A stretch of 64,000 nucleotides of DNA, taken from Eledone cirrhosa (Eukaryota). Location of the stretch: assembly GCA_964016885.1 (NCBI GenBank), contig OZ024741.1:19034001-19098000 (forward strand), written 5' to 3'. Position numbers and translations under genes: made by a program. Numbering within the stretch: the stretch's first letter is position 1; each line of letters begins with the position of its first letter. The notes under the pieces were generated by a model that was not told the DNA's origin, did no database searches, and was given only the letters and a program-made list of their open reading frames with translations. This document shows positions 226 to 42,004 of the stretch, one piece after another.

Positions 226-335
226 GCTTACAAATGTTTCCACGGTGGTTATACAGCCTAGTTATGCTATGTGCAAATCTATAACTATTTGCAGAACTCA
301 ATTATCAAATGTTGTGACCACTGTATCATCAGAGC
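226..335 (-). ncRNA. Type I hammerhead ribozyme motif (mirror copy)
   Basis: Reverse complement of 1408-1517. Confidence 0.65.
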
Positions 336-1407
336 AGAATGGTTAAAATGTACAATGTAAATACCCTTAAGTGAGGTTATTGGTGAAGATAGAGTAGAAT
401 AGGAAGAGAGAAAAGAAGGGGAGAGGAAGAGAGAGAGAAAGATATGCAGGGGTTGGAGAAATGGGAGAGAGCGGTTTGTAGATATCTTAATCAAAATGTT
501 GTGGTAGGGGTTTTATTATACTGGTTACTCTCAAAGCGACCACCTTAAGCGATGCGTTGATAGTGAAGGTTGGAATTATTTATTGCCCCAGAGGGCAGGT
601 TCATAGATGTGGGGAGGGAGGTAGGCCTAGGGCGAGAGAGAGAGAGAGAGAGTGGAATGGATAGAGAGGGAGTGATAGAGAGGGGACAGACGAAAACTAT
701 GGGGTGGGTGAACATTGGATTCATAGTAGTAATTTACGAATTGCACTAAGTTCCTATTTATAGTGATAAGCAGGGTATTGTCTTGTAGTGTAAGGGAAGA
801 GAAAGTGGTTAGATAGAAAGCAATGTTATAGTTACGGGTTCGAATGTTAAGTTATTTTATAGTGAGAGAATTTAGCTTTCAGTTTGTGGTTGCAGTACAA
901 TGATCGTAACATTCAAACCCGTAACTATAGCATTGCTTTCTAGCTAACCACTTTCTCTTCCCCCACACTACAAGACAATACCCTGCTTATCACTATAAAT
1001 AGGAACTTAGTGCAATTCGTAGATTACTACTATGAACCCAATGTTCACCCACCCCATAGTTTTCGTCTGTCCCCTCTCTATCACTCCCTCTCTATCCATT
1101 CCACTCCCTCTCTCGCCCTAGGCCTACCTCCCTCTCCACATCTATGAACCTGCCCTCTGGGGCAATAAATAATTCCAACCTTGACTATCAACGCTTAAGG
1201 TGGTCGCTTTGAGAGTAACCAGTATAATAAAACCCCTACCACAACATTTTGATTAAGATATCTACAAACCGCTCTCTCCCATTTCTCCAACCCCTGCATA
1301 TCTCTCTCTGTCTCTCCATCTCCTCTTCTTTTCTCTCTTCCTATTCTACTCTATCTTCACCAATAACCTCACTTAAGGGTATTTACATTGTACATTTTAA
1401 CCATTCT

Positions 1408-1517
1408 GCTCTGATGATACAGTGGTCACAGCATTTGATATTTGAGTTTTGCAAATAGTTATAAATTTGCACATAGCATAACTAGGCTGTATAACCACCG
1501 TGGAAACATTTGTAAGC
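1408..1517 (+). ncRNA. Type I hammerhead ribozyme motif with long stem II
   Basis: gct-CTGATGA-tacagtggt...accaccgtg-GAAAC-attt-GTA-agc. Confidence 0.65.
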
Positions 1518-38937: not shown

Positions 38938-41010
38938 TAGTGTATCCGGAATGATAAAGGTGAGCTTGCCCTCACAAGTGCTGAGAAGAAAGATGCATTG
39001 AAGAGTCATTATGATAGAGAATGAGGAGAATGCATGGGAAGAAGAGACCCTACCCCAAGTAGACCCTATAGAGGGGCCAGCAGTACAAGTCAGCAGCAGC
39101 GTAGTAAGTAAGGCAATGAAAGATATGAAGATGGGGAAGGCAACCGGTCCATCGGGTATAGCTGCCGAGATGCTGAAGGCATCTGGGTCTGTAGGTCACA
39201 CTATAACCACACGTATTGTTAACCAGGTAATACTAGAAGGTGTCATACCAAAAGATTGGTGCAGTAGCATCATTGTCAACTGCTACAAAGGTAAAGGTGA
39301 TGCACTAGATAGAGGAAACTATAGAGGTATAAAGCTGATGGACCAGGCCATGAAAGTAACAGAAAGAGTTATAGCACAGTTGATTAGGGACCGGGTGAAA
39401 CTAGATGAGATGCAATTTGGGTTTGTACCAGGAAGAGGCACCCCTGATGCCCTCTTCCTTGTGAGGCAGTTACAGGAAAAGTACCTAGCTAAAAGTAAGC
39501 CACTCTACCTGGCATTCGTCGATCTCGAGAAAGCTTTTGATAGAGTTCCATGTGCTGTAATCTGGTGGGCTCTTAGAAAACTAGGAGTAGATGAATGGCT
39601 TGTGAAAGCTGTACAAGCCATGTATAGGGGAGCAGTCAGCAAAGTTAGGATTAGCAATGAGTATAGCGAGGAATTTAGTGTACAGGTTGGTGTCCACCAG
39701 GGCGCTGTTCTTAGTCCTCTCCTGTTCATCATAGTCCTGCAGGCAATAACGGAGGAGTTTAAGACCGGATGCCCATGGGAACTCCTGTATGCTGATGACC
39801 TCGCACTTATAGCTGAATCTATGGTAGAACTAGAGAAGAAATTCCAAACTTGGAAGCAGGGACTAGAAAGAAAGGGTCTCAAAGTCAACATGACAAAGAC
39901 TAAGGTCCTTGTAAGTAGATGAGAAAACAGAACCCAGATCCCCTCAGGGAAATGGCCTTGCTCAGTATGAAGGAAAGGTGTAGGTAGGAACTCCATTCTC
40001 TGCCCCAAATGCAAACAATGGGTACACAAGAGATGTAGAAGGATCTCAGGAAGCTTAACTAAGAATGTAGGCTTCACATGTAGCAGCTGTACTGGGACAA
40101 CAAGCAAACAGCAACAGGAATCAAGTACCACCAATCTCTGGGAGGGCTCTGTAGAGACAGTAGACAGCTTCTGCTACATAGGTGACTGAATTAGCAGTGG
40201 AGGTGGATGTTCAGAAAGTACAATAACTAGGGTAAGAACGGGATGGAAGAAGTTCAGGGAGCTACTGCCACTGCTAGCTGCAAAAGGCTTCTCCCTCAAA
40301 ATGAAAGCAGACTGTATGATGCGTGCATCCGAACAGCAATGTTACATGGTAGTGAGACCTGGGCGCTGAAGGTGGAAGACTTACGTAGATTAGAGAGAAA
40401 CGAAGCCTGTATGCTCCGATGGATGTGTAATAGTAATATACGCGAACGACAAAGCATAAATGAATTGAGAGAGAGACTGAGCATAAGAAGGCGGTTGCGT
40501 TGGTATGGACATGTGATGCGTATGAAGGATGACAGCTGCATAAAAAGGTGCAGAGCACTAGAAGTCGATGGAAACTGCGGAGTGGGTAGACCCGAGATGA
40601 CCTGGGATGAGGTGATAAAAGCCGACCTTACCCAATTACACCTCTCAAAGGTGATGACATACGACCGTGACCTCTGGCGTCACGCAGTAATACAGAGTAC
40701 CCGACCTCCCATGGGTACAAGCTGAAGCATATAGACAATATGCCCCCACACCCCCCACCGCAAGGTGGACGTGGAGGTGTCACGGTAAAAAAGCACCCAG
40801 CCGACACTGTAAAGTGGATGTGTAGGCGCCACGGAAAAGCATCCACACTCACTGTAAATGAGGCTGGTGTTAGGAAGGGCATCCAGCTGTAGAAATCAGT
40901 TCCTGTATGAGCAAGGCATGGTCAGCCAACCAGACACTGCCCACAACAGGACAACCCGTCTAACCCATGCTAGCGTGGAAGAACGGACGTAAAACAGTTG
41001 TGATGATGAT
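38938..41010 (+). mobile_element. 5'-truncated, degenerate RTE LINE
   Basis: Same family as the 10357 copy; stops near 39920, 39968 and 40186, frameshift near 40305. Confidence 0.95.
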
Positions 41011-42004
41011 ATATATATATATATATATAAATAAAATAAAATAACAGGAGGCTGGACAGGTATATTCCAATACCTGATGATATCACCGGATTCATATGGA
41101 ACCCGGTCATTGACATGATCAGAGTATAATAAACCTTTCAAGGATTTACACAACTCCAGCCTCCTGTTATTTCATTTATAATTAACTCCGTATTCGCACC
41201 ACCAACTACACAAACGAAGATGGGTGAACTGCACTGCGTTGAGTACTCTTCACAATATTACACCAGGATTGACCATACGGAATGACCAGTTCTATCCAGT
41301 GGTGAACCAACAAACCTAAAGATTATATATATATATATATATATATATATATGAGAGAGAGAGAGAAGAATTGTACAGTGATTATGTATGTCAAGAAAAG
41401 GTAGAGGAGAAAATAGCCCAGGAGAGTGTTGTGTGTGTGTATATATATATGTTTGTATGGGTGGGTGTATATGTGTGAGAGCATTGGATGTTCCTATTCA
41501 TACAAGATCATTTTAAGTATATACACATCTATCAATTAATTGTATTGTTTATGTGTGTGTGTGTGTGGGTGCAAGTGTCTGTCTATATGACTGTGTTAAT
41601 GTGTCTGTATGTGTGACAGTGTTCTGTTTGCCTAGCACTTTAGCCCCCACCCCACACACTGTCTCTCTCTTTCACTGTCACATATGTACACACACACATA
41701 TATATATATGTATATATATAAATACATATTTACAAACACATATGCTTACATGAATACATACACACACACTTACGTACACACCTACATATAATCATGTACA
41801 CGCCAACACGTATGTCTGTCTGTGTTAGAACCACCTCCTCCTCCATCTGTATTGGACTGGAATGCTCTGTGGCAGTGAGTACAGCTGAAGGGCTGAGGTT
41901 ACACCAGCTGTGTGTGTGTGTGTGTGTGTGTGTACTGACCTGGGGTCAAACAACACACTATGGGTGAATGAATTTCCTGGCAGAATTCACACTCAACTGA
42001 CTGT

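What the first reader, a model, noticed from the sequence alone, without database searches (positions are those of the whole stretch)
226..41320. Dispersed set of intronic type I hammerhead ribozymes carried by short, mostly (TA)n-embedded fold-back elements
Seen: at least 7 motifs with the full CUGANGA/GAAA/UH core and pairing stems (226-335 -, 1408-1517 +, 9343-9388 -, about 9778-9851 -, 9943-10008 +, 12957-13023 +, 27041-27093 -), 2 degenerate ones (2799, 21401) and several half-motifs. Their stems differ, so several families are involved. Most sit in small non-coding modules next to (TA)n, often as inverted pairs. Known: Penelope-like elements carry minimal hammerheads in their pseudo-LTRs and often have inverted 5' segments. 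Inference: these are multiple PLE or retrozyme-like families at high density in one gene.
Basis: partly seen in the sequence, partly recalled or inferred. Interest (0 to 1): 0.75.

Follow-up and report, generated by a model that had tools for sequence, protein, structure and literature searches.

The report
Hydra-clade Penelope hammerheads in myosin introns
These motifs are predicted self-cutting RNAs at the tail ends of Penelope-type jumping genes that landed in TA repeats inside a myosin V gene; the gene is not special, because this genome carries about one such motif per 8,000 bases, likely several hundred thousand in all.

Summary
The motifs are real. Six of the seven 'full' ones pass a type I hammerhead descriptor (0.02-0.04 expected in shuffles), and stems covary across families. 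Each belongs to a dispersed repeat family.

Four families (A 9842/9951, B 332/1411, C 12965, G the half-motifs) are the 3' ends of Hydra-clade Penelope-like elements. The window itself holds the end of the B ORF. G uses the known U3-A8 core (2,191 exact copies). D (27084) is a 325-nt retrozyme-like unit.

Fold-backs are head-to-head, with both ends in (TA)n. In 83 of 92 pairs the two arms stop at two different fixed sites.

'High density in one gene' fails. The myosin V host has 16 motifs in 222 kb; 60 spaced genome stretches have 75 in 600 kb. That extrapolates to about 360,000 (95% 210,000-550,000), with 69,363 exact copies of one superfamily.

The class, its (TA)n targeting and an octopus member are published (PMC8557442). 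The scale was not in the papers I found. This scan noted the same system before on other DNA of this genome. Cleavage is untested.

The parts
28..1570 (.). Family B two-armed (head-to-head) insertion of a Hydra-clade PLE 3' end, both ends in (TA)n; long-ended arm on -, short-ended arm on +
226..335 (-). Type I hammerhead, family B (core 332-326, predicted cut after 229, 84-nt stem II arm)
847..909 (-). Last 20 codons and stop of the Hydra-clade ORF (..YCNHKLKAKFSHYKIT*), matching the ORF end in full-length copies L051/L053/L055
1408..1517 (+). Type I hammerhead, family B, sense to host gene (predicted cut after 1514); predicted fully paired with the inverted arm in pre-mRNA
1672..1764 (-). Family G 3' tail fragment, no ribozyme left
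2798..2929 (+). Family F short element; hammerhead with G5>A (CTAATGA at 2802), likely inactive; parent ORF not found
4221..4248 (+). Possible heavily decayed hammerhead (core, 3-bp stem II, palindromic ACATGT, but no GAAA and no stem I); no other copy among the loci held
4573..4665 (+). Likely myosin V tail exon
   Evidence: gene identity
7080..7226 (+). Likely myosin V coiled-coil exon
8055..8175 (+). Likely myosin V coiled-coil exon
9255..9430 (-). Family E short fold-back element; hammerhead core at 9384, C.C at base of stem II, stem I broken in this copy; parent ORF not found
9741..10144 (.). Family A two-armed insertion of a Hydra-clade PLE 3' end; hammerheads at 9842(-) (cut after 9785) and 9951(+) (cut after 10000)
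10160..13068 (.). Family C two-armed insertion, split by a later RTE-type LINE; left arm (to 10359) keeps only the 3' end, right arm (from 12569) carries the hammerhead at 12965(+) (cut after 13015)
10360..12568 (+). RTE-type LINE fragment nested in the family C element (label from motifs and recall; its CTGATGA at 11310 is the codons of the RT YADD motif, not a ribozyme)
13230..13416 (+). Likely myosin V coiled-coil exon
21409..21449 (-). Decayed hammerhead with U3-A8-type core (TTGACAA)
23432..23556 (-). Family G fold-back, 3' half of the ribozyme only
26894..27225 (-). Family D, 325-nt non-coding retrozyme-like unit with a compact type I hammerhead (core 27084, cut after 27053, palindromic ATGCAT helix III); antisense to host gene
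32870..33064 (-). Family G two-armed fold-back truncated inside stem II (GAAA, helix III and UC in both arms, no 5' core)
33975..34107 (+). Family E fold-back with scrambled centre; 5' core at 34014(-) only
41027..41323 (+). Family H two-armed element; decayed hammerhead (core 41074, GAAA and U16.1 lost); intact form in L276

Best explanation
The motifs are predicted type I hammerheads in the 3' pseudo-LTRs of 5'-truncated Hydra-clade Penelope-like retrotransposons (families A, B, C, G) and of short elements likely copied by the same enzymes (D, probably E, F, H), and they lie in myosin V introns at ordinary genome density. Likely cycle (inferred): read-through transcripts of tandem copies are cut by the hammerheads, probably as dimers through the palindromic helix III, into unit RNAs that may circularise. 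The GIY-YIG endonuclease nicks (TA)n, which reads the same on both strands. Each free DNA end primes reverse transcription on the element RNA at one of two fixed TAT-containing sites 3' of the ribozyme. The two incomplete cDNAs are joined head to head, giving a fold-back with one short and one long end. Because both priming sites lie just 3' of the ribozyme, most short copies keep all or part of it. In the host pre-mRNA the sense copies are probably silent: two are predicted locked into long duplexes with their own inverted arm, two have core mutations, and the fifth has a weak helix III and no nearby partner.
For: Shown: stems and core beyond chance. Stem I pairs (3 bp or more) in 23 of 30 distinct motifs chosen without regard to stem I, against 3.9 (max 11) with partners swapped; T-A, C-G and G-C pairs alternate. 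Stem II keeps 3 bp + N.C/C.U mismatch + 5 bp in 5 subfamilies chosen without regard to stem II (37 vs 29.6 pairs; 14 of 2000 swaps reach it). Dispersed families, 98-99% alike for A, B, C. ORFs upstream with RT motifs, CxCX5C linker, GIY-YIG and CxxC/CxH; RWR and DKT in the intact 784-aa frame of G; Pfam GIY-YIG on the A ORF, E=1.2e-5. Tandem units of 3693 bp (B) and 3543 bp (G), one hammerhead per unit. 83 of 92 inverted pairs have one long and one short end; 38 of 40 in G, where most were met by chance. Background density 75 in 600 kb vs 2-3 shuffled, calibrated by an exact count (13 seen, 13.9 expected). Fold predictions for sense copies. Published: Hydra definition, (TA)n insertion, Hydra-1_Obim with a hammerhead (PMC8557442); opposite-strand hammerhead pairs from truncated PLEs, U3-A8 core, dimer cleavage (PMC4209133).
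Against: No cleavage, transcript or circle was observed. Pfam gave no family for the two longest ORFs (L290, L055) or two other pieces (4 of 5 Hydra-type pieces); their RT assignment rests on motifs and on a by-eye comparison with the published Hydra-1_Obim alignment. No parent ORF was found for D, E, F or H. The family C link to its ORF is a chain of overlapping matches across about 2.1 kb, not one clean copy. Which arm reaches further 5' was not counted, so cDNA fold-back versus two separate primings is not decided. 9 of 92 pairs do not follow the long+short rule. The stem II test has only 5 related subfamilies. Folding predictions ignore co-transcriptional order: a sense ribozyme 3' of its inverted arm should be captured, but this is a model.
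Confidence: 0.85

Rival explanations
1. The fold-backs form from one priming event: the first cDNA folds back on itself (often at the ribozyme hairpins), copies its own strand, and is joined to the other DNA end at the second TAT site.
For: Many family G and E junctions fall inside stem II or stem I and have near-perfect palindromic centres. One long and one short end is also expected here.
Against: The model predicts that the long-ended arm always reaches further 5'. In family A loci read by eye the short-ended arm reaches further in the window, L002, L004 and L020, and the long-ended arm in L016 and L017 (not counted systematically).
Confidence: 0.25
2. The sense-strand ribozymes have been kept or co-opted to cut the myosin V pre-mRNA and affect splicing, like the conserved intronic hammerheads of amniotes.
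For: Three intact-core sense motifs in the window, 7 in the gene. Intronic hammerheads with a proposed role in mRNA biogenesis are published (PMC6155905, passages).
Against: Copies are young (98-99% identical to dozens of dispersed copies). The gene has fewer motifs than the genome average and no strand bias (7 sense, 9 antisense). Two sense cores are predicted fully paired to the inverted arm, and the third does not fold as a hammerhead in the energy model.
Confidence: 0.07
3. The elements are MITE-like DNA transposons whose terminal inverted repeats happen to hold ribozyme-like words, with TA target duplications.
For: Short, inverted-repeat, TA-flanked appearance.
Against: Variable 5' truncation with fixed 3' ends, unequal arms, tandem units and upstream RT/GIY-YIG ORFs; covarying stems.
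Confidence: 0.02

Closest known systems
Hydra clade of C-terminal EN+ Penelope-like elements, incl. Hydra-1_Obim of Octopus bimaculoides (Craig et al. 2021, PMC8557442; read: abstract, passages, section 11, supplement hits)
   Same: Single ORF with RT then GIY-YIG; RWK-like, DKT, CxCX5C, CxxC/CxH motifs; canonical hammerhead at the 3' end; (TA)n insertion; partial tandems; inverted 5'-truncated copy with a tail at one end only.
   Different: Units are 3.5-4 kb (published: generally under 3 kb). The one-sided tail is about 60-130 nt here (published 30-40 bp). The paper lists one octopus Hydra family in the rows I saw; here there are at least four in one window and tens of thousands of copies. 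Family G has a U3-A8 core; family B has an 84-nt stem II arm.
PLE-associated hammerheads of metazoans (Cervera and de la Pena 2014, PMC4209133; parts 1-2 of 4 read)
   Same: Dispersed single motifs from truncated PLEs, opposite-strand pairs 100-700 bp apart, U3-A8 core variant, palindromic helix III, expected dimer cleavage with low in vitro activity.
   Different: Helix III is present (2-6 bp) rather than absent. Counts given there are 2,000-9,000 per genome, against an estimated several hundred thousand here.
Metazoan non-LTR retrozymes (PMC7229834, passages and sections 14-15; bioRxiv 10.64898/2026.07.22.740005, parts 1-3 of 5)
   Same: Family D: about 325-nt non-coding unit, one type I hammerhead, 3' end joined to its own 5' start, stable predicted circle (z=-3.8).
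   Different: D is mostly dispersed as monomers plus partial tandems in (TA)n, not long arrays. Circular RNA not shown. The highest count I read is 126,247 motifs in axolotl.
Conserved intronic hammerheads of amniotes, e.g. in RECK (via review PMC6155905, passages)
   Same: Type I hammerhead inside an intron.
   Different: Those are few and deeply conserved; these are young, multicopy and without strand bias.

Membership tests
Type I hammerhead ribozyme | CUGANGA (or UUGANAA), GAAA and UH in type I order with stems I-III | tested here: met
   6 of the 7 named motifs; 9384 fails in this copy
Type I hammerhead ribozyme | Stem covariation across families | tested here: met
   Stem I 23 of 30 vs 3.9 swapped; stem II 37 vs 29.6, 14 of 2000 swaps
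Type I hammerhead ribozyme | Match to an Rfam hammerhead model | tested here: not met
   None among 123 matches at E<=10
Type I hammerhead ribozyme | Self-cleavage at the UH site | not testable with these tools
   Needs an in vitro assay or RNA ends
Hydra-clade PLE (families A, B, C, G) | RT followed by C-terminal GIY-YIG in one ORF | tested here: met
   784-aa frame in L290 (G), 627-aa frame in L055 (B), broken frames in L052 (A) and L200 (C, endonuclease part only); Pfam GIY-YIG hit only for A
Hydra-clade PLE (families A, B, C, G) | CxCX5C linker | tested here: met
   CNCRIKSNC (A), CNCHLPERC (B), CNCRNKPDC (C), CNCPDRSIC (G)
Hydra-clade PLE (families A, B, C, G) | RWK and DKT motifs in the N-terminal part | tested here: met
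   RWR and DKT in G; the A, B and C copies fetched lack or were not traced to this part
Hydra-clade PLE (families A, B, C, G) | CxxC and CxH around the conserved E and N of the endonuclease | tested here: met
   CRLC/CNH (B), CNLC/CKH (G; A in L059); not seen for C
Hydra-clade PLE (families A, B, C, G) | Insertion into (TA)n and 3' hammerhead | tested here: met
Hydra-clade PLE (families A, B, C, G) | Placement inside the clade on an RT tree | not tested
   Published proteins were only read in the supplement, not aligned
Non-LTR retrozyme (family D) | 150-400 nt non-coding unit with one type I hammerhead | tested here: met
   325 nt; no shared sequence 5' of the unit in 60 distinct arms
Non-LTR retrozyme (family D) | Tandem organisation | tested here: inconclusive
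   24 of 60 arms are preceded by their own 3' end; complete same-strand neighbours are rare (1 pair among the first 100 of 255 exact matches; L101)
Non-LTR retrozyme (family D) | Circular RNA in tissue | not testable with these tools
   Needs RNA data
Non-circularly permuted (SGC/CSG) hammerhead | Scrambled strand order | tested here: not met
   All-permutation scan of the window gave one AT-rich SCG hit at 51663 and no scrambled order (needs stems of 4 bp or more)

The most novel reading that the evidence does not exclude
This genome carries about 360,000 type I hammerheads (one per 8 kb), roughly three times the highest count I found in print (axolotl, 126,247), spread by a radiation of Hydra-clade PLEs and their retrozymes. 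Each insertion is made by priming both ends of a cut (TA)n on two fixed sites of the element RNA. The resulting fold-back also switches off the sense ribozyme in host pre-mRNA, which is what lets long genes tolerate several hammerheads each.
Probability: 0.4. Interest if true: 0.65.

Novelty: new member of a known kind. Interest (0 to 1): 0.38.

Why it matters
The window itself is an ordinary sample of its genome. What matters is the scale and the testable rule. (1) Rfam misses all of these motifs (a giant squid genome paper lists 235 Hammerhead_1 hits), so cephalopod ribozyme content may be undercounted by orders of magnitude. (2) An intact, young, tandem Hydra-clade element with two fixed 3' ends gives a substrate for the in vitro PLE integration system that Craig et al. 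call the next task. (3) A long gene holds about 7 sense hammerheads, so how hosts avoid cutting their pre-mRNA can be asked directly.

Tried and rejected
Rfam scan: only microsatellite-driven miRNA matches.

Family G with a standard CUGANGA core: 69 genome matches with unrelated 5' flanks, read as chance joins. The real core is UUGAGAA.

CTGATGA at 11310, 28556 and 39792 lies in the RT YADD codons of LINE copies, and 29996 lies in a LINE ORF. 25051 belongs to a SINE-like repeat without GAAA or stems.

Scrambled-order hammerheads: none found in the window. Parent ORFs for D, E, F: none in 60, 22 and 35 copies.

The first stem I test (23 of 44) counted several registers per motif and was redone. 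Exon heuristics found no myosin exon between 13417 and 64000. The 380-aa frame at 34402-35544 had no Pfam family above cut-off.

Lunse et al. 2017 on dimer cleavage of PLE hammerheads is not held; only its reference entry was seen.

Literature searches: penelope+hammerhead+octopus, hammerhead ribozyme+cephalopod, hammerhead+ribozyme+octopus, octopus+penelope+transposable elements+genome assembly, hammerhead+Penelope-like+retrozymes, Penelope-like+twin priming+inverted. The listings and the passages I read gave no octopus hammerhead census and no two-site priming model. The O. vulgaris repeat paper has 0 hits for ribozyme or hammerhead. Supplements of the bioRxiv preprint were closed, and those of PMC4209133 and PMC7229834 were not read; they could hold mollusc counts.
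Full report
OBSERVATION. The window has 27 CTGANGA words. A type I descriptor needing all three stems keeps six: 332(-), 1411(+), 9842(-), 9951(+), 12965(+), 27084(-). Local dinucleotide shuffles of 1-42000 give 0.02-0.04 on average (max 1 in 200). The bare word is not enriched: 19 against about 20. The seventh named motif (9384) has a C.C pair opening stem II and, in this copy, a broken stem I. 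2802, 21446 and 41074 are decayed copies. Rfam reports no hammerhead among 123 matches.

ARE THE STEMS REAL? Two tests avoid selecting on the stem examined. In 60 evenly spaced 10-kb genome stretches, 30 distinct motifs were chosen by core, stem II and palindromic helix III; 23 have a stem I of 3 bp or more, against 3.9 (max 11 in 5000) with partners swapped, and the pairs next to the core are T-A (9), C-G (9) and G-C (5). Among 120 copies chosen by core, stem I and helix III only, five subfamilies all keep a stem II of 3 pairs, a mismatch at position 4, then further pairs (37 pairs vs 29.6; 14 of 2000 swaps reach it). Five related subfamilies are a small sample.

FAMILIES. The window is G000:C2:19034001-19098000 of a 3.0-Gb genome. 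That it is an octopus is my inference from the repeats and from likeness to Hydra-1_Obim; no call names it. Each motif retrieves a dispersed family: 1010 (A), 1713 (B), 1010 (C), 3159 (D), 1738 (E), 1045 (G) and 3866 (F) first-look candidates, 40 scored each. A, B and C copies are 98-99% alike, D 92-95%, E and F mostly about 80-89%. Copies share fixed 3' ends in (TA)n and vary at the 5' side.

PARENT ELEMENTS. Longer copies lead to ORFs. B: a 627-aa frame (L055) and tandem units 3693 bp apart (L051); the window holds the last 20 codons of this ORF at 847-909(-). A: hammerhead-ORF-hammerhead in L052, with a Pfam GIY-YIG hit. C: an endonuclease-bearing frame about 2.1 kb upstream in L200, joined by overlapping matches. 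G, the source of the half-motifs, did not show a CUGANGA core. One flank showed UUGAGAA instead; that pattern has 2,191 exact matches and 0 in the control, and marks 3543-bp tandem units with an intact 784-aa frame. These proteins carry the features that define the Hydra clade in Craig et al. 2021 (PMC8557442 section 11): RWK-like and DKT motifs (G), CxCX5C (all four), CxxC and CxH (A, B, G). That paper reports (TA)n insertion and canonical hammerheads for the clade, and its supplement lists Hydra-1_Obim with both. Pfam found nothing on 4 of 5 Hydra-type pieces, and no tree was built. D has no ORF: of 60 distinct arms, 26 are truncated inside the unit, 24 are preceded by their own 3' end and 10 by unrelated DNA or a few bases of that end. 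Its 325-nt unit folds as a stable circle (z=-3.8), which fits a non-LTR retrozyme (PMC7229834; bioRxiv 10.64898/2026.07.22.740005). E, F and H have no parent among the copies held (H only compared).

FOLD-BACKS. Inverted pairs point away from each other, with both 3' ends in (TA)n. Each family has two fixed 3' ends; in G they lie about 25 and 105 nt past the cut site, each at a TAT. Of 92 distinct inverted pairs, 83 have one long and one short end (G 38/40, A 21/23, B 5/6, C 7/9, E 11/12, D 1/2); 3 are long+long, 3 short+short, 3 unclassed. Searches for A-E were seeded with one end type, while most G pairs were met by chance. This is the one-sided 'tail' drawn by Craig et al., longer here. Two-end priming on a palindromic target is my inference; cDNA fold-back is the rival.

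HOST GENE AND DENSITY. Motor-domain exons lie 22-53 kb upstream, an IQ exon about 16 kb upstream, coiled-coil exons in the window, and a DIL exon 97 kb past the window's end that matches myosin Va at E=2e-16, all on +. So the motifs are in myosin V introns. A relaxed descriptor finds 6 in the window, 16 in 222 kb of the gene (7 sense, 9 antisense) and 75 in the 600-kb sample (shuffled: 2-3). Four random 10-kb stretches reach 7 or more in 25% of draws. The gene is not enriched. The sample is calibrated: one exact pattern occurs 69,363 times in the genome (control 0), predicting 13.9 in the sample, and 13 were seen. The bootstrap estimate is 362,000 motifs (95% 213,000-553,000; two tandem arrays supply 17 of the 75). 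The largest count I read is 126,247 in axolotl; mussel has about 5,000.

EFFECT ON THE HOST. In folding models the sense cores at 1411 and 9951 are fully paired with their inverted arms, and 12965 does not adopt the hammerhead fold. The best-folding motif (27084, stem I probability 0.92) is antisense. Helix III strands are perfect or near palindromes able to pair between two copies, as in PLE hammerheads that cut weakly and as dimers (PMC4209133). Silence in the pre-mRNA is likely but untested.

VERDICT. Real motifs of a published kind: Hydra-clade PLE ends and a retrozyme-like family. The published account already covers dispersed motifs, opposite-strand pairs, the U3-A8 core, (TA)n targeting and an octopus member. 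The scale and the two-fixed-end rule were not in the papers my six searches returned. I measured both before consulting earlier notes of this scan, which report the same system on other DNA of this genome; those notes are not independent support.

Noticed in passing
L259 (G000:C3:190000281-190003381) and L288 (G000:C9:15006165-15007877): Arrays of a 310-bp unit with one hammerhead each (11 in tandem; 4+2 head to head): a classic retrozyme-like family, separate from D.
   Followed up: no
L290/L291 (G000:C1:91472000-91495000): Five tandem 3543-bp Hydra-clade units plus an inverted copy; two 784-786 aa open frames; U3-A8 hammerhead with a 6-bp helix III.
   Followed up: partly
L233, L242, L243, L246, L285; window 21409-21449: The U3-A8 core occurs in at least three further families besides G.
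   Followed up: partly
L057:3247-5611(-) and L052:6840-8000(-): Two other PLE types nested in these loci (longer RT with a DKG-like region and CxxC linker; and a Poseidon-like frame; labels recalled, not tested).
   Followed up: no
window 10349-12268, 27955-30729(-), 39002-40725: Three copies (95-99% alike) of an RTE-type LINE with a zinc-finger-like insert; one splits the family C element, so it is the younger.
   Followed up: partly
window 34402-35544(+): 380-codon open frame, Thr/Asn-rich then acidic with a 60-nt repeat, inside the myosin V gene; could be an alternative exon or a nested gene.
   Followed up: partly
window 42997-48517: 5.5-kb satellite of 18/7-nt subunits with strong C/G strand skew.
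   Followed up: no
window 58000-64000: Several rearranged fragments of an L1/Tx1-like LINE interleaved with (TATC)n arrays (label recalled).
   Followed up: no
window 17409-18022 and 55332-56250: 61-bp minisatellite derived from the 3' part of a LINE-like repeat also seen at 14800-14950 and 5320-5400.
   Followed up: no
L058, 208 bases before the window (-): Another long-armed hammerhead (85-nt stem II arm, 6-bp helix III) in the same gene, antisense.
   Followed up: no
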